Shown piece after piece: positions 11,764 to 61,059 of a DNA stretch of 64,000 bases. Origin of the DNA: a virus (lineage: Duplodnaviria; Caudoviricetes). Where the stretch lies: the IMG/VR virus record IMGVR_UViG_3300047539_000055. The stretch is one strand, 5' to 3'. The translations under genes and the position numbers were made by a program. Under the pieces are notes generated by a model. It ran no database searches, had not been told where the DNA came from, and saw only the letters and a list, made by a program, of their open reading frames with translations. Numbering within the stretch: the stretch's first letter is position 1; each line of letters opens with the position of its first letter.

Positions 11764-11798
11764 TAGGGAAATTAATGACACCCATGAATTGGCATTTC

Positions 11799-11926
11799 TA
11801 ACTTACTGATTCTAAAGGGGCAAAATCTCGGTTTTGCCTCTATTTAGCGTTCTAAGGGGTCTGGACGTGTCCTAGCATGGTTTCGACTTGAAAACGCTCT
11901 AAAAGGGCATTCTGAGCCTTAAAATG
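11799..11926 (+). repeat. ~130 bp structured intergenic repeat, copy A
   Basis: Similar to 59328-59454 (TGATTCTAAAGGG, GCAAAA..TTTTGCC hairpin, GCGTT.TAAGGGGTC, CTTGAAA, CTGAGCCT.AAAAT). Confidence 0.75.
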
Positions 11927-11971
11927 CAAGAAAAATTACCACATTTTTCTTGCAAATAAGTCGAATTTTGG

Positions 11972-12000
11972 TTGACTTTTGCCTGTGAATTTGGTATACT
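11972..12000 (+). promoter_or_regulatory. sigma70-like early promoter
   Basis: TTGACT-N17-TATACT. Confidence 0.75.
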
Positions 12001-12026
12001 ATATTTGTAGTTGAGAGGATAAACCC

Positions 12027-13229: not shown

Positions 13230-13270
13230 ATACCGCAACTTGTTGATTTTATCGACAGTTGCGGTATTTT
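13229..13270 (+). terminator. Intrinsic terminator-like hairpin
   Basis: AATACCGCAAC...GTTGCGGTATT then T run. Confidence 0.6.
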
Positions 13271-13271
13271 G

Positions 13272-13300
13272 TTGACAAACTGAGTAAAGTTTGCTACAAT
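13272..13300 (+). promoter_or_regulatory. sigma70-like early promoter for R-M operon
   Basis: TTGACA-N17-TACAAT. Confidence 0.7.
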
Positions 13301-13347: not shown

Positions 13348-14649
13348 ATGGCGACAGTAACAGTTCATGATGGAATATCTCGCGGTAATGTTATCCACGA
13401 GCAAACATTTACTTTACTAAAGGGTTTACACCCGACTAATAGCGGAAATACTGTTATTACTGTGGAAGGCTTTACCTTATATGGCCGTCCAAAAGCAAAT
13501 ATTGAGGTAGAGTCGAGCGCAGATTTTACTGTTTATGGTGAACTTCCATTAGTAACAAAAACACCTAAATCAAGCGTGGAGAGAACAGCGAAAAGAACAG
13601 CAAGAGCCGAAGCAAAGGAACTGGCGAAGATAAAAAAGATGGCAAGAAAAGGTGAGCAATCTGAAAGTAACGGAACTGATTTTGAATTAGAGGTTGCAAA
13701 ACGGCTTGAGGAAATTACTAAATTTCAAATTACAGGTATGACTAAAAAATTGGATTCAGCATCAGAAAGAACGCGCATTCCTATAGATAAAGTATTGACA
13801 GATTCCCTTCGACATGTTCTTGCACAAGAAAAATTGAATTCATTTCAAAATAATATTGCTGGACGAATTAAAATGAATCCTGACTCTCAAGCGAAGATAA
13901 CAGGAGATGTAAGTGATATTACTCTTATCGTAGATTCTGCTGAGATAAAGCCATCACAACTTATAAATGTTTCATTGAAAGTAAATAATAGTGAATTCAA
14001 ACATCCTTGGTATAGACCCAATACTAATATCTTGAGTATTCTAACTTCTGAGATGTGTAATACATCTGTTGACGGAGCAAAAAAAATATCAGATGTGTTT
14101 AAGCGTATAGCCAAAAATGGTTATGATTACTGGGAAGGTGAAGGCGAAACTGGTAAAAAAGGAGATGATTGCTGCCCCATAGCAATAAAGCGCGGATATT
14201 ACCAAGAGTTGCTTGATATTTTGCGAGATGAGTTGTTACCTATTCAGTGTAATGCCATCGTAATCAAATCGCTTTTTTATTATGTAATAGGGTCTAAAAG
14301 TTATTATCAATTTATCAAAACAAAAAAAGATGACATTACAATCAAGGCGTATAATATCAATGATCCTGCATTGAAACAGGTAACAGTAAGTAACATACCT
14401 ACTTCCATAAATTCTATTAAAATTGAAAATGGAACTCGTGGCGGTCGCGAATTACATATTAAATTCCCTAATGATGTTGTTTTGATAATCAGGATACACA
14501 ACGATTCTGACAAAATCAAAACAACTGCAAAAACAGGTAGTGAGATTAAGGGCTTCAAAATGGGTATAACATTGAGTGATCCTACTAATCAAATATTTAC
14601 TCCTATATTGCCAACCAAGATAACAGCATCCAATTTTCAAGGAGAATAA
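13348..14649 (+). CDS. HaeIII-family type II restriction endonuclease with extra N-terminal phage domain
   Basis: SNGxxFE, GDVSDI, VSLKxN..FKH, IRIHN motifs as recalled for the HaeIII family; directly upstream of a HaeIII-like MTase. Confidence 0.7.
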   Translation: MATVTVHDGISRGNVIHEQTFTLLKGLHPTNSGNTVITVEGFTLYGRPKANIEVESSADFTVYGELPLVTKTPKSSVERTAKRTARAEAKELAKIKKMARKGEQSESNGTDFELEVAKRLEEITKFQITGMTKKLDSASERTRIPIDKVLTDSLRHVLAQEKLNSFQNNIAGRIKMNPDSQAKITGDVSDITLIVDSAEIKPSQLINVSLKVNNSEFKHPWYRPNTNILSILTSEMCNTSVDGAKKISDVFKRIAKNGYDYWEGEGETGKKGDDCCPIAIKRGYYQELLDILRDELLPIQCNAIVIKSLFYYVIGSKSYYQFIKTKKDDITIKAYNINDPALKQVTVSNIPTSINSIKIENGTRGGRELHIKFPNDVVLIIRIHNDSDKIKTTAKTGSEIKGFKMGITLSDPTNQIFTPILPTKITASNFQGE

Positions 14650-14657
14650 ATAGTTTT

Positions 14658-15599
14658 ATGACTTTACTATCATTATTTGCTGGCGCTGGTGGAATGGATT
14701 TTGGATTCCATCAAGCAGGTTTTAAAACAATTTGGGCTAACGAATTTGATAAAAATATTAGTCCTTCATATAGGAATTATTTTCCAAAAGTTAAATTTGA
14801 TGGTAGATCAATTGTTGACATACCAAATGAAGATTTACCAACAAACATAACTGGAGTTATTGGCGGCCCGCCTTGTCAATCTTGGAGTGCAGCCGGAGCA
14901 AGAAGAGGAATTGATGACAAAAGAGGAAAATTATTTTTTGAATATTTACGAGTGATTGAACATACAAAACCATTGTTTTTTGTTGCTGAAAATGTTTCTG
15001 GTATACTTCATAAAAAGCATAGTCAAGCATTTGAGGATATAATCCACTCTTTTGAATCATTGGACTATTCTGTAACTTGGAAACTGGTAAACGCGGCCGA
15101 TTATGAAGTTCCACAAGATAGAAAACGAGTAATCATCGTTGGTTATCATAAATCTCTCAATAAGAGTTTTGTGTTTCCGAAGCCCATTCTTTTAAAGAAA
15201 TCAATGAAAGATGTAATTTTTGATTTACAAAATCAATCATTTGGTGTAAACAATCACGAATTTAAAGAGGGTGGATTTTCATCAATATTTTTAAGTAGAC
15301 AACGAGTGCGTGATTGGAATGATCAATCATTTACCATATTAGCAACAGCCAAGCATATTCCATTTCATCCATCGTCACCAAAAATGATTAAAATAAGTAC
15401 AGATATTTGGAAACTTGAACAAAATAAGGAAAATGATTATCGTCGGTTAACGGTTAGAGAATGTGCAAGAATTCAAACTTTTCCTGATGATTATAAATTT
15501 TTGTATTCAAACATAGATTATGGTTATAAAATGATAGGGAATGCAGTTCCAGTAAAATTAGCATATCATATTGCCAAAACGATTAAAAATGATTTATAA
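14658..15599 (+). CDS. DNA (cytosine-5)-methyltransferase, M.HaeIII-like
   Basis: SLFAGAGGMD, GGPPCQSWS, ENV, QDRKRV, SRxRVRxW, RRLTVRECARIQTFPD, YKMIGNAVP. Confidence 0.92.
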   Translation: MTLLSLFAGAGGMDFGFHQAGFKTIWANEFDKNISPSYRNYFPKVKFDGRSIVDIPNEDLPTNITGVIGGPPCQSWSAAGARRGIDDKRGKLFFEYLRVIEHTKPLFFVAENVSGILHKKHSQAFEDIIHSFESLDYSVTWKLVNAADYEVPQDRKRVIIVGYHKSLNKSFVFPKPILLKKSMKDVIFDLQNQSFGVNNHEFKEGGFSSIFLSRQRVRDWNDQSFTILATAKHIPFHPSSPKMIKISTDIWKLEQNKENDYRRLTVRECARIQTFPDDYKFLYSNIDYGYKMIGNAVPVKLAYHIAKTIKNDL

Positions 15600-15740: not shown

Positions 15741-16238
15741 ATGGCAAACCCATTGATAAAAAAGGCAGTAATAACAAAAAAAGGATTTTTTAGAGTTAGA
15801 AGCGAAGCAAGCCTTTGTGGACACTTCTTACACCCCCAAAAAGGAATTACAACAGGAAATTCAAAATATGGAACACATAAGGTAGCAGTTTCTATTGCGC
15901 TTGATGGTAAGTATGATGATGATCAAATTGCGTTTGCCGCCGCTTGCGAAAGTTTTGAGTATAGTGGACGCTCTGGATATGCTTCAAAGGGTACAAAGCA
16001 GATCAAAGATCAAATTTGGAACACTGATAACAACGCACTGCGAGAATCTCGTGAGCAAAATTTTCCTATCAGCGTTTTTGTGGCGGAATGGGATGAGAAT
16101 GGTAAAAAGTTGGGATATCAACTTTTACCAGACAATTATTATGTTTGGGAAATAAAAGATGGCAATGTTGATGGTGTTACTCTTAATCCTCAAACTGGAC
16201 ATGCACAAATCAAGTTTGTTTTGAAACCTGGCAAGTGA
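15741..16238 (+). CDS. Stand-alone SRA/YDG-like domain protein (putative 5mC reader)
   Basis: HPQKGI, AVSIALDGKYDDD, FEYSGRSG, QIKDQ, NNAL, PISV match SRA core pattern; no nuclease domain attached. Confidence 0.7.
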   Translation: MANPLIKKAVITKKGFFRVRSEASLCGHFLHPQKGITTGNSKYGTHKVAVSIALDGKYDDDQIAFAAACESFEYSGRSGYASKGTKQIKDQIWNTDNNALRESREQNFPISVFVAEWDENGKKLGYQLLPDNYYVWEIKDGNVDGVTLNPQTGHAQIKFVLKPGK

Positions 16239-16251
16239 AAATTTTGATAAA

Positions 16252-16905
16252 TTATTGATCTAAAAGGTCAGCATTCTTTCTAATCGTTTCCAATTCCTCA
16301 GTGACTTCTGCATTCACATCCCCGCCCCATTGATCAGCAAAAGCTGCCGCGATACCAGGAAAAGTACGATTACGAATCTTCACACGATCTTTGACTGGTG
16401 CGAATGCACTCCACTTCGCCATTACTTTTCCACTTTTGAGGGTAACTTGCTCACCACGATCAACAATATTGGTTGGAACAAGTTTTGGAAGATTCTTGAG
16501 CCATAGGCAAGTAGTTTTTTGAAAGCTATCTCCGAATTGATATGGCTGAATGATCTGATCTGGCTTGCGCCATAACGTACTCATGATTCCGACAGGGTTC
16601 TCAATTGCTAATTTTGGTATTTTGCAGTTTGCAACGGCCATAAAAAACTCAATTCCTTTTTGTTGTCTGCCGTCTGCTCTTTTTTCTTTAAACCATCTGG
16701 CTCCGGAAACAGTAAGGTGTGTACATGGAGGGTGCATAATACCCAAGTCCCACGAGCCGTCGTTCATAATTTCAAGCAAGTCACCGTGGATATGATTTCC
16801 ACCAGTTTCAGAGGCTTCTAAATCACAGGAATAGGCTTCATGGCCTAGTGCTTTGAAGGCATCTCTGGTCCGACCACTGAACTCACAACCGATTAAAACG
16901 CGCAT
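16252..16905 (-). CDS. Short phage-type DNA cytosine methyltransferase
   Basis: MRVLIGCEFSG, HPPCTHL, IENPVG, IQPYQFG, KTTCLWLKNLP, RTFPGIAAAFADQW; late promoter CTAAATA upstream. Confidence 0.8.
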   Translation of the reverse strand: MRVLIGCEFSGRTRDAFKALGHEAYSCDLEASETGGNHIHGDLLEIMNDGSWDLGIMHPPCTHLTVSGARWFKEKRADGRQQKGIEFFMAVANCKIPKLAIENPVGIMSTLWRKPDQIIQPYQFGDSFQKTTCLWLKNLPKLVPTNIVDRGEQVTLKSGKVMAKWSAFAPVKDRVKIRNRTFPGIAAAFADQWGGDVNAEVTEELETIRKNADLLDQ

Positions 16906-16976: not shown

Positions 16977-17480
16977 ATGATTCTAAAAATTGTCAAATAC
17001 CCCGATCCAATTCTCTCCCAAGTCGGAGAAGCTATCACTGAATTCAATGCGGATTTACATACGCTGATAGCCGACTTGTTTGAAACCACCTATGCCAATC
17101 AAGGTATTGGTTTATCAGCACATCAAGTAGGCATAGCAAAGCGTGTGGCTGTAATTGATATCAGTAGAGGCGAGAGTTCCGCAGACAAATTAGTACTTAT
17201 CAATCCTGAGATTATTTTCAAAGAAAGATTTATGTATGAAGAAGAAGGATGTCTCAGCTTCTCCCCAGATATTCGTGAAAAAATTGTTCGCTATGCCAAA
17301 GTAACGGTTCGCTCTCAGAATGAACAAGGCGAGTGGTTTGAGATGGACGGTGAAAATCTATTGTCAAGGGCGATGCAACACGAGATAGACCACCTTGATG
17401 GAATATTGTTTATTTTTCGTATGAGTTCTCTCAAGCGCAATCTTAATATGCGTAAAATTCGCAAGATGCAACAGAAATGA
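16977..17480 (+). CDS. def: Peptide deformylase
   Basis: GIGLSAHQVG, EGCLS, QHEIDHLDG. Confidence 0.95.
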   Translation: MILKIVKYPDPILSQVGEAITEFNADLHTLIADLFETTYANQGIGLSAHQVGIAKRVAVIDISRGESSADKLVLINPEIIFKERFMYEEEGCLSFSPDIREKIVRYAKVTVRSQNEQGEWFEMDGENLLSRAMQHEIDHLDGILFIFRMSSLKRNLNMRKIRKMQQK

Positions 17481-17483
17481 CTT

Positions 17484-18518
17484 ATGGAATCCGCACTACA
17501 AACTCGCGATTCGTTCCGCAATGGAGTCTTCCAGCGCGATAAGAATTTGTGTGTCATTTGTGGCAAAGCAGGGCAAGATGCCCATCACATTATGGAAAGA
17601 CGACTTTTCCCTGATGGTGGATATTATTTTGATAACGGTGCTGTCGTTTGCGGCGAGTGTCATATCAAAGCTGAACAAACCTTAATCACAACTGAAGAAT
17701 TGAGAGAAGCGATTGGCATTGAAACTGTCATTCTTCCGCCACATTTGTATCCAGATCAACGATACGATAAATGGGGAAATCCAATTATTGACAATGGAAT
17801 GAGACTTCGTGGAGAACTTTTCGAGGATGTAAGTGTTCAGAAAGTTCTTGCGCCTGTTCTACATTTGTTTTCTTACAAGGTAAAATATCCGCGTACATTT
17901 CACTTACCTTGGAGTCCTGGCGCAACTAAAGATGACAGAATGCTTTCAACGGATGTTGTTGACTCTTGGAATTGGGAAGTGGTTATAACCGAGAAAATGG
18001 ATGGAGAAAATACTACCCTATACAAAAATGATTTACACGCGAGAAGTCTTGACTACGAACCACATCCAAGCCGTAATAAGATCAAGGCACTCCATAGTCA
18101 GATTGGATACAATATTCCGGATAATTGGAGAATCTGTGTAGAAAACCTGACAGCGGTTCACTCAATCAAATATATGAATTTACCTTCTATCTGTGCTGTG
18201 TTTAGCATATGGGATGGATGCAGTTGTATGAGTTGGGATGATACTGTTACGTTTGCTCAGGTGTTGAACTTGGATACCGTGCCTGTTATTTGGCGCGGAA
18301 TGTGGAATCAATTTGACAGCGAATCTTTTGGGTTGAATTTAGCTAAACAGCTTGATACTATCAAACAAGAAGGGTATGTCATTCGTCCAGCCGCATCGTT
18401 TCAGTTCAAAGATTTCCGAACTATGGTTGGCAAGTATGTTCGCGCCAAACACGTACAAACTCATGGACATTGGATGCGCCAAAAAATAGATTTCAATATT
18501 GTCAATCCTATGCTATAA
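17484..18518 (+). CDS. HNH domain fused to ATP-dependent RNA ligase (Rnl2-like)
   Basis: N-term CVIC..AHHI..NG..C.ECH; ligase KYPRTFHLPWSPG, TEKMDGEN, EGYVIR, KYVR. Confidence 0.8.
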   Translation: MESALQTRDSFRNGVFQRDKNLCVICGKAGQDAHHIMERRLFPDGGYYFDNGAVVCGECHIKAEQTLITTEELREAIGIETVILPPHLYPDQRYDKWGNPIIDNGMRLRGELFEDVSVQKVLAPVLHLFSYKVKYPRTFHLPWSPGATKDDRMLSTDVVDSWNWEVVITEKMDGENTTLYKNDLHARSLDYEPHPSRNKIKALHSQIGYNIPDNWRICVENLTAVHSIKYMNLPSICAVFSIWDGCSCMSWDDTVTFAQVLNLDTVPVIWRGMWNQFDSESFGLNLAKQLDTIKQEGYVIRPAASFQFKDFRTMVGKYVRAKHVQTHGHWMRQKIDFNIVNPML

Positions 18519-57632: not shown

Positions 57633-57793
57633 CCCAAATAGGGAACTCCACGGCTGTAGATTACAAAAGTGGAAGAATAATATTACTATGGTAAATTACT
57701 ATGGTAATGTTGTTTTTCTACTTTTTGTATGTTACACTCTGTTTATGGCAACATCGTTGCCGAACTAAATTTACAAGAAAAGGAAAACAATTT

Positions 57794-58969
57794 ATGAATT
57801 TCTCATTGAAAACTGCGGTGTTTTTTCTTGCCGCTTTTGTATTAACTTGTCCTACTTCTGCATTTGCTTGGCCTACTTGCTCTGGTAATTGGGTTCAGGT
57901 TCCTACAGGAACTACGGGTACAGGTGCTTCTGGTACTGGTTATGGTGCCGTTGAAGTTGAAAGCGGTCAAACATGGCAATGTACCGCCATAACTACTCCA
58001 ACAACGGGTGGCGGTACAAATAACAATACTTCTACTTCTACTTCAAGTGCAAACGGCGGCAATTCTTCTTCCAGTGCTAATGGTGGAAATTCATCTGCAA
58101 CTGGTGGAACAGCCAATGGCGGTGCTGGTGGTAAGGGTGGTGCTGGTGGTTCAGCGACAGGTGGTACGGGCACTGGTGGTTCAGCTACAGGTGGAACAGC
58201 CAATGGTACAAACACGCTCAACGGCGGTGCAACAACATCTTCGGCCAATGGAACAAACACCCTCAATGCTGGTTCAACAACAGCTACCGGTGGAACGGCC
58301 AATGGTGGAACAACTACATCCAGTGGTGGTAATTCTAAAAATGCTAACAAGAATACCAACACTGCCGCTGGTGGTACAGGTGGTACTGGCGGAACTTCAA
58401 CAGTAACTTCTGCAAATACAAACGCTAACACAGCGAATGGTGGTGCAGGTGGTACTGCAAACCAAAGCCAACAACAGTCAAACAATAGTACTGGCAATAG
58501 CACATCATTGAATTCAACTTATAATGAAGTTCGTCAAACTCCGTTGGCATATGCACCAGATGCTATTCCAACTGCTCCATGTATCAAGAGTTATGGTGCG
58601 GGTGCTTCTGGCCCAATGTTTGGTGCTTCATTCGGCGGCGGTAAGATTGATAAAGGTTGCGATGCTCGTGAAACTGCGCGTTCATTTGCTCTCTTGCATA
58701 ATTTTACAGCAGCGGCAAAAATTCTTTGTCAGACAGATGCGGCAAAACGCGCTGGCTTAACTTTGGATGATTGCTTGGCAATTATCACTCCAGTAGTTCC
58801 AGTGACTATTAGAGAAGTTCCAGCAGTGACACCAACTCCGGTGGCATCAGTAACACCAGTAACAGTAGAAACTCCTGCTCCTACTCCTGCTCCGCAGATT
58901 GTAGACGCACCAGTAACTCCTGTGACTCCTGTGAAGTCTGTCTATCCAGAAAAAAAGATTAGTCAATAA
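57794..58969 (+). CDS. Secreted Gly/Thr/Asn-rich low-complexity protein with Cys-containing C-terminal domain
   Basis: Signal peptide ending AFA; GGTANG repeats; Pro/Thr tail. Confidence 0.7.
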   Translation: MNFSLKTAVFFLAAFVLTCPTSAFAWPTCSGNWVQVPTGTTGTGASGTGYGAVEVESGQTWQCTAITTPTTGGGTNNNTSTSTSSANGGNSSSSANGGNSSATGGTANGGAGGKGGAGGSATGGTGTGGSATGGTANGTNTLNGGATTSSANGTNTLNAGSTTATGGTANGGTTTSSGGNSKNANKNTNTAAGGTGGTGGTSTVTSANTNANTANGGAGGTANQSQQQSNNSTGNSTSLNSTYNEVRQTPLAYAPDAIPTAPCIKSYGAGASGPMFGASFGGGKIDKGCDARETARSFALLHNFTAAAKILCQTDAAKRAGLTLDDCLAIITPVVPVTIREVPAVTPTPVASVTPVTVETPAPTPAPQIVDAPVTPVTPVKSVYPEKKISQ

Positions 58970-59316: not shown

Positions 59317-59327
59317 AACTGAGTTTC

Positions 59328-59454
59328 TAAAGTGTTGATTCTAAAGGGCAAAATTTCCGAATTTTGCCCTATTTGGCGTTATAAGGGGTCGGGTGGTATA
59401 ATGACATCATTTGACCTTGAAAGTCGCTTAAAACGTCAATCTGAGCCTCAAAAT
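59328..59454 (+). repeat. ~130 bp structured intergenic repeat, copy B
   Basis: Similar to 11799-11926. Confidence 0.75.
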
Positions 59455-59946
59455 AAGTAATATTTTGGTTGACTTTTGAATAAATTCTTGCTATACAATA
59501 TTTGTAGTTGAGAGGAATGAACGATATGACATTTCGTGAAGATACCGAAGCATTGGCGTCTATGATCATTAGAACAAAGGATTTACTCAATTTTTGGGTT
59601 AAGAACAGTGATGCTGATGGTATATGGAATAATGATTCAAAGGCTCAATTTGACACTCTTATGAATGCGTTTATGGTTGATGCTCTGTCATATCATATTG
59701 ATCTGGCTAGCCTAATTATGCATGATGCTGTTTCCGTTGCGCATTTGGAACGTGCTACCGATTTTACAAAGTTGGCAGTTTGGCCAAGAATGATTGACGA
59801 ATTGTATCCTTATTTGAAGGATGCCCAAGTAAGTTACTGAAAACAAAGGACAAAATAATTGAGATTTTGGTTGACAAACACGCCCAACTTTGGTATTCTA
59901 TATATGTTGGTAGGGAATACCAAACACTTTCAAGGAGAAATCACAG

Positions 59947-61059
59947 ATGGCTACAGTAACCATTATCAAGGGTTTTGGACGTGGTGGAAAGCTGATCAAG
60001 AATCAGACTTTTACCTTGCTCAAGGGTTTTGCTGTTGGCGGTAGGAGCGGTAAGGGGTTTATTACCGTTGATGGCACAAAGTTGTATGGATGCCCTTCCG
60101 CTCGTATCAAGGTCAAGTCCGAAAAGGATTTTGTCATCAATGGCGAATTGCCTGTAGGTAAGTCAAAGCCTCTTTCTGCCCGTCGCATTGCGGCTGACGC
60201 AAAGAAGGGTGAAGCAGTTTCCATGCTGGAAGACTCTTCCATTCCTGATGTTGAATCAAATGAAACAGATGAAGAAATTACCACACGAATCAGGAAGCGT
60301 TTTAGCACTCTGAATAAGTTGACAATGGGTGTTAGACGCGGTGATATTACATCTCTTTTTGTTACTGGTGCGCCAGGTGTTGGAAAAACTTATGGCGTCG
60401 AAGCAACTTTGAATGAGGCTGGTTTTCTTGCTGCTCTTGAAGATAACCCAAAGCGTTATGAAGTTGTTTCTGGTGCAATGACTCCCATTGGCCTTTATAT
60501 GAAGTTGTTTGAATATTGTGGGCCAAATGATGTTCTTGTGCTGGACGATTGCGATATGGTTTTCGCTGATGAAACTGCACTCAACATTCTCAAGGCTGCA
60601 TTGGACACTTCTAAGGTTCGCAAGATTTATTGGAATGTGGCTTCCAATGTTTTGAACAAGGCAGACGTTCCAAATTATTTTGTATTTGAAGGTTGTGTAA
60701 TCTTCATTTCAAATATCAACTTTCGCAAGGTTCGCAGTGAGCGTCTTCGTGGTCATTTGTCTGCTTTGATGTCTCGTTCACACTTCCTTGATTTGACTGT
60801 CCATACCTTCCGTGAGAAAATGCTTCGCATTGAAGATTTGGTTACGAATCACGATATGCTTGATCAGTTTGGTTTGAAGAAGTCCACTTGTAATGCGATG
60901 ATGGGATTTCTTCGCGAGAATGCCAAGGAGTTCAATGAACTTTCTTTGCGCTCTGTTATCAAGTTGGCTGGTCTTGCTAAGACTTGCGATGAAATCACAG
61001 AAGAATGGGAAGAAATCGCTCGTGAATCGTTGATGGGTAATCCACTGTCTTACGAATAA
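59947..61059 (+). CDS. AAA-type ATPase with small N-terminal domain
   Basis: Walker A GAPGVGKT, Walker B VLVLDD, FISN, SR; early promoter near 59871. Confidence 0.85.
   Translation: MATVTIIKGFGRGGKLIKNQTFTLLKGFAVGGRSGKGFITVDGTKLYGCPSARIKVKSEKDFVINGELPVGKSKPLSARRIAADAKKGEAVSMLEDSSIPDVESNETDEEITTRIRKRFSTLNKLTMGVRRGDITSLFVTGAPGVGKTYGVEATLNEAGFLAALEDNPKRYEVVSGAMTPIGLYMKLFEYCGPNDVLVLDDCDMVFADETALNILKAALDTSKVRKIYWNVASNVLNKADVPNYFVFEGCVIFISNINFRKVRSERLRGHLSALMSRSHFLDLTVHTFREKMLRIEDLVTNHDMLDQFGLKKSTCNAMMGFLRENAKEFNELSLRSVIKLAGLAKTCDEITEEWEEIARESLMGNPLSYE

What the first reader, a model, noticed from the sequence alone, without database searches (positions are those of the whole stretch)
13348..13575. 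Restriction endonuclease carries the same N-terminal domain as the phage AAA ATPase 46 kb away
Seen: REase MATVTVHDGISRGNVIHEQTFTLLKG...ITVEGFTLYGRPKANIEVESSADFTVYGELP aligns with ATPase (59947) MATVTIIKGFGRGGKLIKNQTFTLLKG...ITVDGTKLYGCPSARIKVKSEKDFVINGELP over ~70 aa, each followed by a basic linker. Both genes follow early promoters. Inference: a bacterial R-M nuclease domesticated by grafting on a phage localisation, oligomerisation or DNA-binding module, perhaps coupling it to the ATPase for host-DNA degradation or exclusion of competing phages.
Basis: partly seen in the sequence, partly recalled or inferred. Interest (0 to 1): 0.75.

Follow-up and report, generated by a model that had tools for sequence, protein, structure and literature searches.

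The report
Phage restriction enzyme with borrowed ATPase head
A T4-like phage carries a HaeIII-type restriction-modification pair whose nuclease has acquired, by gene fusion, the small N-terminal barrel and basic linker that normally head the phage's conserved NrdC.10 AAA+ ATPase. The fusion is real but so far one of a kind, and what it does is unknown.

Summary
The protein at 13348-14646 (433 aa) and the one at 59947-61056 (370 aa) share an N-terminal module: 53% identity over 70 aa, and BLASTP E 4e-18 over 132 aa.

The ATPase is the homologue of T4 NrdC.10. The shared module, a roughly 68-aa all-beta barrel plus a basic linker, is the native N-terminus of that family, which has at least 5365 homologues including T4's own.

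The nuclease part is a divergent but complete HaeIII-family enzyme:
- It scores above the Pfam PF09556 cut-off.
- It keeps all family-invariant residues.
- Its predicted fold is HinP1I/MspI-like, Z 9.7.
- It is followed 8 nt later by a methylase matching M.HaeIII at E 1.6e-99.

Ordinary HaeIII enzymes lack the module. A longer bacterial subfamily has an unrelated extension.

The captured copy did not come from the resident gene. It groups with a sister phage lineage (97/96 support; AU p 0.006), has AT-shifted codon usage, and has swung from net charge about +6 to -3.

No second example turned up among 1.84 billion representative proteins or 1071 cultured T4-like genomes. Two of the three environmental haplotypes covering that part of the gene carry null alleles of the nuclease.

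I read it as an early-expressed GGCC restriction-modification operon with a captured accessory module of unknown role. Coupling to the ATPase is unsupported.

The parts
13272..13300 (+). Sigma-70-type promoter (TTGACA-17-TACAAT with TG extension) in front of the nuclease-methylase operon. A terminator-like hairpin with a T run lies just upstream, at about 13230-13273.
   Evidence: 11 of 12 consensus positions; sequence read.
13348..13551 (+). Captured NrdC.10-type N-terminal domain (residues 1-68). It is an all-beta small barrel with net charge -3.
   Evidence: similarity; AF2 pLDDT 90.3 with a 103-row alignment; origin from a sister lineage; charge.
13552..13665 (+). Basic linker (residues 69-106, net +7). 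It is homologous to the NrdC.10 linker up to about residue 90. An internal Met98 sits where short HaeIII-family enzymes start, so the fusion junction lies at about residues 90-98.
   Evidence: alignment to P0035 and P0033; family N-termini; charge.
13666..14649 (+). HaeIII-family PD-(D/E)XK nuclease core (residues 107-433) plus the stop codon. Invariant E113, D179, D187, D190, S209-x-K211, N213, R382-x-H384-N385 are all kept.
   Evidence: PF09556, 30.5 bits against a cut-off of 25; family alignment; AF2 pLDDT 74; HinP1I Z 9.7 over 221 aa, MspI Z 8.0.
14658..15599 (+). C5 cytosine methyltransferase, a close relative of M.HaeIII over its whole length including the target-recognition region. It starts 8 nt after the nuclease stop.
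   Evidence: PF00145, 2.4e-86; 1DCT E 1.6e-99, residues 1-312 against 1-323.
59871..59899 (+). Sigma-70-type promoter (TTGACA-17-TATTCT with TG extension) in front of the NrdC.10 homologue.
59947..61059 (+). Resident NrdC.10-family AAA+ ATPase (370 aa). It consists of an N-domain (1-69, net +8), a linker, and an RFC-like AAA+ body.
   Evidence: phrog_1250, 4.7e-83; Konradin nrdC.10, 38% identity over the full length; T4 NrdC.10.

Best explanation
The locus is an early-transcribed type II restriction-modification operon of the HaeIII (GGCC) kind, carried by an environmental T4-like phage.

Origin. The nuclease is a chimera. A HaeIII-family catalytic core, with a HinP1I/MspI-like PD-(D/E)XK fold, was joined in frame near its original start codon (about Met98) to the first 90 or so codons of an NrdC.10 AAA+ ATPase gene. 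That segment encodes the family's 68-aa beta-barrel head and the basic part of its linker. The donor was a sister phage lineage, not the resident nrdC.10. The fusion is old enough that codon usage has drifted to that of the AT-rich cassette, and the barrel has lost about nine units of positive charge while keeping its hydrophobic core.

Inferred mechanism:
- The incoming phage DNA is already GG(m5C)C-methylated.
- The nuclease can therefore be made at once from a host-type promoter and cut unmethylated GGCC sites in the host chromosome or in co-infecting DNA.
- The co-transcribed methylase maintains protection of the replicating phage DNA.
- The captured barrel plus basic linker acts as a folded accessory arm on an enzyme class that binds DNA as a monomer. 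Most plausibly it raises DNA affinity through the linker or brings two nuclease molecules, or a partner, together.

Steps shown: the chimeric architecture, family memberships, donor lineage, intact motifs and cognate methylase. Steps inferred: GGCC specificity, nuclease activity, timing, and any role of the module.
For: Architecture and shared module:
- The two proteins share the module.
- The module is universal in NrdC.10, including T4 and the Acinetobacter phages.
- It is present as one copy per genome in 1071 cultured T4-like records.
- It is a confidently folded beta-barrel, pLDDT 90.
- The nearest Atlas shapes are phage NrdC.10-type clusters only.

Donor lineage:
- The copy groups with P0031/33/34/35/38 at 97/96 support.
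- The AU test rejects grouping with resident P0002, p 0.006.
- It shares their shorter GLH.T..G.(N/T)VITV loop.
- It is 63% identical to the L003/P0035 N-domain against 53% to the resident copy.
- GC3 is 0.29 against 0.47 in the resident copy, close to the cassette's 0.19-0.24.

Nuclease:
- It scores above the PF09556 cut-off.
- It aligns end to end with bona fide family members and keeps all 20 invariant columns.
- HinP1I gives Z 9.7 and MspI Z 8.0, well above the next match at 5.5.

Methylase and operon:
- The methylase matches M.HaeIII at 1.6e-99 including the target-recognition region.
- It starts 8 nt downstream of the nuclease stop.
- GGCC is not depleted in the window, 79 sites against 97 expected. 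Self-protection must therefore come from modification.
- The operon has a strong host-type promoter.
Against: - The fusion is found nowhere else. Exhaustive phmmer over 1.84e9 representatives returned only fragments of this same phage. IMG/VR scans found nothing.
- Two of three environmental haplotypes covering that part of the gene are null. One has an 8-bp tandem duplication at 13712. The other has CGA to TGA at codon 155. The nuclease is therefore dispensable and may be on its way out.
- The captured barrel sits on a long branch (0.62 against a median of 0.19) and has reversed charge. This fits relaxed constraint as well as new function.
- The Pfam match covers only the last third of the profile, and the AF2 model is of medium confidence, from a 10-row alignment.
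- No activity, specificity, expression timing or binding partner has been measured.
- Whether this phage uses plain cytosine could not be checked, because no whole genome is held.
Confidence: 0.55

Rival explanations
1. Passenger fusion in a decaying gene. An illegitimate recombination put the restriction-modification cassette behind the promoter, ribosome site and first 90 or so codons of an nrdC.10 gene. The N-module is kept in frame only because the nuclease is read through it, and it has no function of its own. The nuclease itself is being lost, leaving the methylase as the selected anti-restriction cargo.
For: - The fusion is unique.
- Two independent null alleles occur among three haplotypes, while the methylase is 100% identical in L011 and L012.
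- The captured barrel has a long branch and has lost six basic residues.
- Internal Met98 sits at the ancestral start position, so a core-only product is conceivable.
Against: - The barrel still keeps every family-wide conserved position (G9, F21, T38, V39, G46) and its hydrophobic core. It folds at pLDDT 90 in the family alignment.
- Codon usage has had time to ameliorate, yet the module has been neither deleted nor degraded.
- No Shine-Dalgarno-like sequence is evident before Met98.
- The window's allele is fully intact.
Confidence: 0.25
2. The shared head lets the nuclease dock onto, or co-assemble with, the resident NrdC.10 ATPase or its target. The ATPase would then drive or direct host-DNA degradation or exclusion of competitors.
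For: - The two proteins share a homologous, folded N-module and similar host-type promoters.
- In many AAA+ proteins the N-domain is the partner- or substrate-recognition element (general knowledge of AAA+ architecture).
Against: - The module derives from a different NrdC.10 lineage.
- It has changed charge by about 9-11 units relative to its source clade and the resident copy. The same binding surface is therefore doubtful.
- It lacks the conserved acidic P..E..ETDEE part of the NrdC.10 linker.
- The function and partners of NrdC.10 are unknown. The only paper in the library that names it reports just a weak AAA match.
Confidence: 0.1
3. Regulatory or auto-inhibitory arm. The now acidic barrel folds back on the very basic linker or on the DNA-binding cleft. 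It would hold the nuclease off until a phage or host cue releases it, protecting freshly replicated phage DNA.
For: - An acidic barrel (-3) sits next to a +7 linker, a pairing absent from the source clade, where the barrel is +5 to +7.
- The nuclease is transcribed ahead of the methylase from an early-type promoter. Some delay mechanism would therefore be useful.
Against: This is purely inferential, with no structural or interaction data. Incoming DNA is expected to be pre-methylated and hemimethylated daughter DNA is normally resistant, so a delay is not required.
Confidence: 0.08
4. Assembly or annotation artefact: the N-module and the nuclease are really separate genes.
For: In contig L009 the gene caller splits the region into a 133-aa and a 191-aa product.
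Against: - That split is caused by an 8-bp duplication downstream of the junction. Residues 1-122 are collinear and identical in L009.
- The ESM Atlas holds the 433-aa protein letter for letter.
- The window's frame is open throughout.
Confidence: 0.02

Closest known systems
HaeIII restriction-modification system (R.HaeIII, Pfam PF09556, with M.HaeIII, PDB 1DCT)
   Same: The nuclease core is a PF09556 member with all family-invariant residues. The adjacent C5 methylase matches M.HaeIII over its whole length, E 1.6e-99. The two genes are arranged as a tandem pair.
   Different: The nuclease is very divergent: 20-26% identity to family members, 30.5 bits in Pfam. It carries a 106-residue N-terminal module absent from the standard 305-330 aa enzymes. 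It is encoded by a T4-like phage behind an early-type promoter, with the nuclease first. GGCC cleavage is inferred, not shown.
HinP1I and MspI, monomeric four-base type IIP endonucleases (PDB 2FKC, 1YNM, 1SA3)
   Same: These are the best and clearly separated structural matches of the predicted nuclease core (Z 9.7, 9.0, 8.0). The motif layout is the same: an acidic residue in the first helix, an Asp, and a polar-x-Lys (here E113, D187/D190, S209-x-K211). Residue equivalence is from my recall of those structures and was not aligned here.
   Different: There is no detectable sequence similarity. Those enzymes have no N-terminal accessory domain. Whether this enzyme also works as a monomer is unknown.
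T4 NrdC.10 (phrog_1250), a conserved early AAA+ ATPase of T4-like phages with no known function
   Same: The N-terminal barrel and the first part of the linker of the nuclease are homologous to the NrdC.10 head, and the barrel nests inside one NrdC.10 sub-clade.
   Different: The nuclease has no AAA+ body, lacks the conserved acidic linker segment, and has an acidic rather than basic barrel. It carries an NrdC.10 module but is not a family member.
Type IIE/IIF and other restriction enzymes with an added N-terminal domain (EcoRII, NaeI and the like; from general knowledge)
   Same: The layout is the same: a PD-(D/E)XK catalytic domain preceded by an independently folded accessory domain that modulates DNA binding or oligomerisation.
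   Different: Their accessory domains are DNA-recognition folds unrelated to this small barrel. No second-site or effector behaviour has been tested here.
Long-form HaeIII-family proteins (P0010, P0011, P0014, P0015, P0016; 410-433 aa) from metagenomes
   Same: They have the same catalytic family and likewise carry an N-terminal extension of about 110-125 aa. The N-terminus of this family evidently tolerates added modules.
   Different: Their extension (MD..I..KIKQTGKS..ER...) is unrelated to the NrdC.10 head (hhalign probability 1.3%). The one context examined, L010, is a bacterial-looking contig next to a D12-class adenine methylase.

Membership tests
HaeIII restriction endonuclease family (PF09556) | Pfam score at or above the curated cut-off | tested here: met
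   30.5 bits against a cut-off of 25, E 2.6e-07. Only residues 300-397 match profile positions 186-291.
HaeIII restriction endonuclease family (PF09556) | Full-length alignment to undoubted members, with the family's invariant residues retained | tested here: met
   phmmer hits P0010-P0020 cover query residues 105-409, and those tested score 120-273 bits on PF09556. All 20 invariant columns are kept in the window protein, including E113, D187, D190, S209, K211, N213, R382, H384 and N385.
HaeIII restriction endonuclease family (PF09556) | PD-(D/E)XK restriction-endonuclease fold | tested here: met
   AF2 model pLDDT 74, pTM 0.76. HinP1I Foldseek E 4.3e-4, probability 1.00. VIA Z 9.7 over 221 residues, MspI Z 8.0, next match 5.5.
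HaeIII restriction endonuclease family (PF09556) | Adjacent cognate GGCC C5 methyltransferase | tested here: met
   The next gene matches M.HaeIII (1DCT) at E 1.6e-99 over residues 1-312, target-recognition region included. The specificity itself is inferred.
HaeIII restriction endonuclease family (PF09556) | Cleavage at GG^CC, blocked by GG(m5C)C | not testable with these tools
   Needs a cleavage assay.
NrdC.10 AAA+ ATPase family (phrog_1250) | N-terminal M(A/K)TVTI... beta-barrel head | tested here: met
   53% identity to the resident copy, 63% to L003/P0035, and 32% (E 2e-06 pairwise) to phage Konradin NrdC.10. It nests in the family tree.
NrdC.10 AAA+ ATPase family (phrog_1250) | Walker-type AAA+ body after the linker | tested here: not met
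   P0001 gives no PHROG or Pfam AAA match. Residues 107-433 are the nuclease. It carries a module of the family but is not a member.
SH3-like small beta-barrel fold (for the N-module) | Significant structural match to SH3, SH3b, KOW or LSm barrels | tested here: inconclusive
   Best Foldseek E 0.39, TM 0.48. Best VIA Z 4.4, with SH3, SH3b, LSm and KOW chains all tied at Z 3.5-4.4.
Restriction enzymes with an effector or oligomerisation domain (type IIE/IIF-like behaviour) | Accessory domain binds a second DNA site or drives oligomerisation | not tested
   No tool output bears on DNA binding or self-association of the module.

The most novel reading that the evidence does not exclude
The NrdC.10 head is a portable 'address' module of T4-like phages. 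It takes whatever it is attached to (an AAA+ motor in every T4-like phage, a restriction nuclease here) to one conserved site of action on DNA or on a conserved replication or nucleoid component. The fusion would then be a Rosetta-stone clue that the unknown job of NrdC.10, conserved in thousands of phages, is carried out on DNA.
Probability: 0.15. Interest if true: 0.65.

Novelty: new variant of a known kind. Interest (0 to 1): 0.42.

Why it matters
Complete restriction-modification pairs in lytic T4-like phages are uncommon. As far as my searches reach, a restriction nuclease built on a domain lifted from a phage AAA+ ATPase has not been described.

The main value is indirect. NrdC.10 is conserved across T4-like phages of enterobacteria, Acinetobacter, Vibrio and marine hosts. 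Its function is unknown, and its N-terminal barrel has no Pfam model.

This fusion shows that the barrel plus linker is an autonomous module that can be transplanted onto a DNA-cutting enzyme. That gives a concrete handle (pull-downs, localisation, DNA binding of the 1-100 fragment) for asking what NrdC.10 does.

The coexistence of intact and null nuclease alleles beside an invariant methylase also gives a small natural snapshot. It shows how a phage-borne restriction-modification pair may decay into a lone protective methylase.

Tried and rejected
Searches that found nothing:
- Near-DNA and tblastn searches of INPHARED with the R-M region and with residues 1-75 or 1-80 of either protein gave no match. 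A marine-type N-domain also gave none. These 70-aa queries are too divergent from cultured phages for a 2.3-Gb search.
- No whole genome is held for the window.
- The search for homologous proteins with P0001 gave one hit, an NrdC.10. With the HaeIII-family alignment A3 it returned only two proteins because the candidate list was swamped.
- IMG/VR scans with the methylase and the nuclease core found no relatives.
- The N-domain scan of IMG/VR returned six loci, all ordinary NrdC.10 genes.
- The search of solved structures found no solved relative of P0001.
- The feature search of the ESM Atlas gave no usable hit, and its structure rows (Rossmann-type oxidoreductases at TM about 0.5) are noise for a 58-residue stretch.
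- The literature search for phage R-M, HaeIII and host DNA degradation returned nothing relevant.

Technical failures:
- A combined alignment of P0001 with both domain families was misaligned by MAFFT (A8), so it was not folded. The two domains were folded separately, which means inter-domain packing was not assessed.

Tests with no usable answer:
- Complex prediction of full-length resident NrdC.10 with the nuclease's N-domain returned 'no answer' (score 0.00). It is neither support for binding nor evidence against it.

Ideas considered and dropped:
- The N-extension of long-form HaeIII enzymes is a distant relative of the NrdC.10 head. MAFFT and phmmer superficially aligned VITVEGFTLYG with LINFEGTPIAS, but hhalign gives 1.3% probability.
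- The basic charge of the head marks a DNA-binding domain family-wide. Net charge across 102 NrdC.10 heads ranges from -3 to +9, with a large group near 0 to +1.
- The copy is a recent intragenomic duplication. This is rejected by the tree, the AU test, GC3 and the lack of DNA-level identity.
Full report
**What is there**

The window is an early-gene region of an environmental T4-like phage.
- Its genes include a gp63-type RNA ligase, an NAD-dependent ligase, a ribonucleotide reductase and many homing endonucleases.
- It has no near-identical DNA in INPHARED, and no whole genome is held for it.

The ORF at 13348-14646 encodes 433 residues (P0001) and the ORF at 59947-61056 encodes 370 residues (P0002).
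- BLASTP of the two gives 40% identity over 132 residues, E 4e-18.
- A six-frame search of the window with the first 72 residues finds just these two copies, 52.9% identical over 70 residues. The next hit is at E 0.7.

**The ATPase and the origin of the shared module**

P0002 is the homologue of T4 NrdC.10.
- It matches phrog_1250 at 4.7e-83.
- It is 38% identical over its full length to the gene annotated nrdC.10 in Acinetobacter phage Konradin, N-terminus included.
- It is 38% identical to T4 NrdC.10 over the ATPase body.
- T4's own protein starts MKTVTINKG...TFELL...I.G, the same pattern.

Of 8000 candidates scored, 5365 proteins matched P0002 at E of 1e-5 or better. The barrel is present at the N-terminus throughout the listed set, from soil-type to marine-type sequences.

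A T4-type barrel query finds 1071 INPHARED records and 1071 places, so cultured T4-like phages have one copy per genome.

The shared segment is therefore the native head of the NrdC.10 family, and the nuclease is the borrower.

**The fold of the module**

With a 103-row alignment, AlphaFold2 folds the module as a seven-stranded small barrel (pLDDT 90.3, pTM 0.75).
- PDB comparisons give only generic SH3, SH3b, LSm or KOW-like similarity (Foldseek E 0.39 or weaker; VIA Z 4.4 or lower). I call it SH3-like in shape only.
- A shape search of the ESM Atlas returns only phage clusters of NrdC.10 type.
- The module has no Pfam or PHROG model of its own.
- A profile of full-length NrdC.10 weakly resembles RFC clamp-loader subunits (E 9e-4).
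- The only paper in the library that names the gene reports just a weak AAA match.

**The nuclease and its methylase**

Exhaustive phmmer of P0001 against 1.84 billion representatives gave 16 hits.
- Three are 99-100% identical fragments of this same phage.
- Four (P0008, P0009, P0013, P0017) match the N-module. P0009 and P0017 are full-length NrdC.10 proteins, and P0008 and P0013 are truncated NrdC.10 fragments.
- Nine match residues 105-409. The eight of these that I tested are solid PF09556 (RE_HaeIII) members, scoring 120-273 bits.

P0001 itself passes the Pfam cut-off (30.5 against 25 bits), though only over the last third of the profile. In the family alignment it keeps every invariant column: G109, E113, D179, D187, V188, D190, S209, K211, N213, R382, H384, N385 and others.

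The core alone folds at pLDDT 74.
- Its best structural neighbours are HinP1I (Z 9.7, 221 residues) and MspI (Z 8.0), against 5.5 for the next match.
- From my recall of those structures, the arrangement is a helix-1 acid, an Asp and a polar-x-Lys. This fits E113, D187/D190 and S209-x-K211. I did not obtain a residue-level superposition.

Eight nucleotides downstream begins a C5 methylase. It matches M.HaeIII (1DCT) at E 1.6e-99 over its whole length, including the target-recognition region (...NHE...S.IF.SR.RVR.WN...).
- GGCC occurs 79 times in the window against 97 expected. The phage does not avoid the site and must rely on modification.

**Is the module standard in the nuclease family?**

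It is not.
- The short family members (305-330 aa) begin a few residues before the NG..FE motif.
- A subfamily of 410-433 aa has an N-extension of 110-125 residues with its own conserved pattern. Profile-profile comparison with the NrdC.10 head gives 1.3% probability.
- The one context examined for that subfamily looks bacterial.

**Where the captured copy came from**

- In a maximum-likelihood tree of the barrels, the nuclease's copy groups with P0031, P0033, P0034, P0035 and P0038 at 97/96 support. The resident P0002 sits elsewhere.
- Forcing the nuclease copy and P0002 together costs 26 log-likelihood units (AU p 0.006). The caveat is that I named the grouping after seeing the tree.
- The copy shares that clade's shorter loop and its GLH.T..G.(N/T)VITV and ANI.V motifs.
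- It is 63% identical to the clade member on IMG/VR contig L003, against 53% to the resident copy.
- Homology continues through the basic part of the linker to about residue 90.
- Met98 lies where short family members start. I place the junction at residues 90-98.
- GC3 of the captured segment is 0.29. That is close to the nuclease core (0.24) and methylase (0.19) and far from the resident N-domain (0.47). DNA-level similarity between the two copies is negligible.

The fusion is therefore not a recent local duplication. Either it formed in, or with DNA from, a sister phage and moved with the cassette, or it is old.

**What has happened to the copy since**

- Its terminal branch is three times the median.
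- Its net charge is -3, against +5 to +7 in the source clade and +8 in the resident protein. It lost basic residues at six positions and gained acidic ones at three.
- The family-wide conserved positions and the hydrophobic core are intact.
- The linker kept and extended its basic part (+7) and lost the conserved acidic P..E..ETDEE segment of NrdC.10.

**Population evidence**

Fragments of this phage occur in three JGI metagenomes and one ENA assembly.
- L009 is identical to the window over 1670 bases except for a tandem duplication of AAATTACT at 13712. The duplication shifts the frame after about residue 122.
- L013 carries C to T at 13810, turning codon 155 (CGA) into TGA. Its first 44 bases are Nextera adapter.
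- L011 and L012 start downstream of both sites and are 100% identical through the methylase.

Of the three haplotypes that cover the 5' half of the nuclease, one is intact and two are independently broken, while the methylase is unchanged. L009 also confirms, independently of the window, that the barrel, linker and start of the nuclease are one reading frame. The ESM Atlas holds the intact 433-aa sequence.

**Expression signals**

Both genes are preceded by TTGACAAAC, a 17-nt spacer and an extended -10, matching 11/12 and 10/12 of the consensus. The nuclease operon is set off by an upstream hairpin with a T run. This supports host-polymerase, early-type transcription at consensus level only.

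**How it most likely works**

*Shown:*
- the chimeric architecture;
- the family memberships of both halves;
- the donor lineage;
- intact motifs;
- a cognate-looking methylase in the same operon.

*Inferred:*
- The phage's DNA enters already methylated at GGCC.
- The nuclease can therefore be made immediately and cut unmethylated host or competitor DNA.
- The methylase keeps the replicating phage DNA protected.
- This would be a functional analogue of the T4 strategy of modified cytosine plus cytosine-specific nucleases. The analogy comes from general knowledge.

For the module I can only rank possibilities:
- an accessory arm that raises DNA affinity or brings nuclease molecules or a partner together (my preferred reading, included in the best explanation at 0.55 overall);
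- a functionless passenger in a gene that is being lost (0.25);
- docking to the resident ATPase or its target (0.10);
- an auto-inhibitory arm (0.08).

**Novelty and score**

- Added N-terminal domains on restriction enzymes are known, and so are phage-borne R-M systems.
- A nuclease headed by the NrdC.10 barrel was not found anywhere else, and that barrel itself is undescribed.
- I rate it a new variant of a known kind.
- Interest is moderate. The fusion is a singleton with null alleles in nature, but it offers a handle on a widely conserved phage ATPase of unknown function.

Noticed in passing
window 15741-16238 (+): A stand-alone SAD/SRA (5-methylcytosine-binding) domain protein of 165 aa, with no nuclease attached, sits directly after the M.HaeIII-like methylase (PF02182, 46.9 bits against a cut-off of 30.7). 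It is identical in JGI contig L011.
   Followed up: partly
window 16252-16905 (-): A second DNA methyltransferase (phrog_757, 3.4e-66; no Pfam hit at E 0.01) lies convergent to the R-M/SRA genes. Together they form a small cytosine-methylation island.
   Followed up: partly
L009 1063-1070 (window 13712) and L013 227 (window 13810): Two independent natural null alleles of the nuclease: an 8-bp tandem duplication (AAATTACT) in JGI 3300037150, and CGA to TGA at codon 155 in ENA ERZ27249415. The L009 allele would still make the barrel, linker and first helix as a 133-aa protein.
   Followed up: yes
P0010, P0011, P0014, P0015, P0016; locus L010 2805-4061: A subfamily of HaeIII-family nucleases (410-433 aa) has a conserved N-terminal extension of about 115 aa (MD..I..KIKQTGKS..ER..L...EGTPI...FK) with no Pfam match. 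In L010 the neighbour is a D12-class adenine methylase, not a C5 methylase.
   Followed up: partly
window 11795-12019 and 59324-59516: A repeat of about 220 bp (75-84% identity) lies 1.3 kb upstream of the nuclease and 430 bp upstream of nrdC.10. It may mark recombination-prone spots but is not adjacent to the fusion junction.
   Followed up: partly
window 17484-18518 (+): An RNA-ligase-family protein (phrog_24030, 2.1e-110) whose first 70 or so residues also match several HNH-endonuclease PHROGs (E 5e-08 to 3e-04). It may be an HNH-like zinc-finger head on an RNA ligase.
   Followed up: no
window 16977-17480 (+): A phage-encoded peptide deformylase (phrog_2890, 2.3e-30; Pfam Pep_deformylase in L011) lies next to the methylation island.
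   Followed up: no
window 13639-13641 (codon 98 of the nuclease): An internal ATG (Met98) sits 10 residues before the NG..FE motif, where short HaeIII-family enzymes start. It probably marks the ancestral start codon, and a core-only product by internal initiation cannot be excluded. No clear Shine-Dalgarno sequence precedes it.
   Followed up: partly
window 57701-58969 (+): A 422-aa protein with a signal-like N-terminus and a long low-complexity Gly/Thr/Asn/Ala/Ser stretch (GGTANGG-type repeats), followed by a 115-aa ORF. It lies just upstream of the nrdC.10 region.
   Followed up: no
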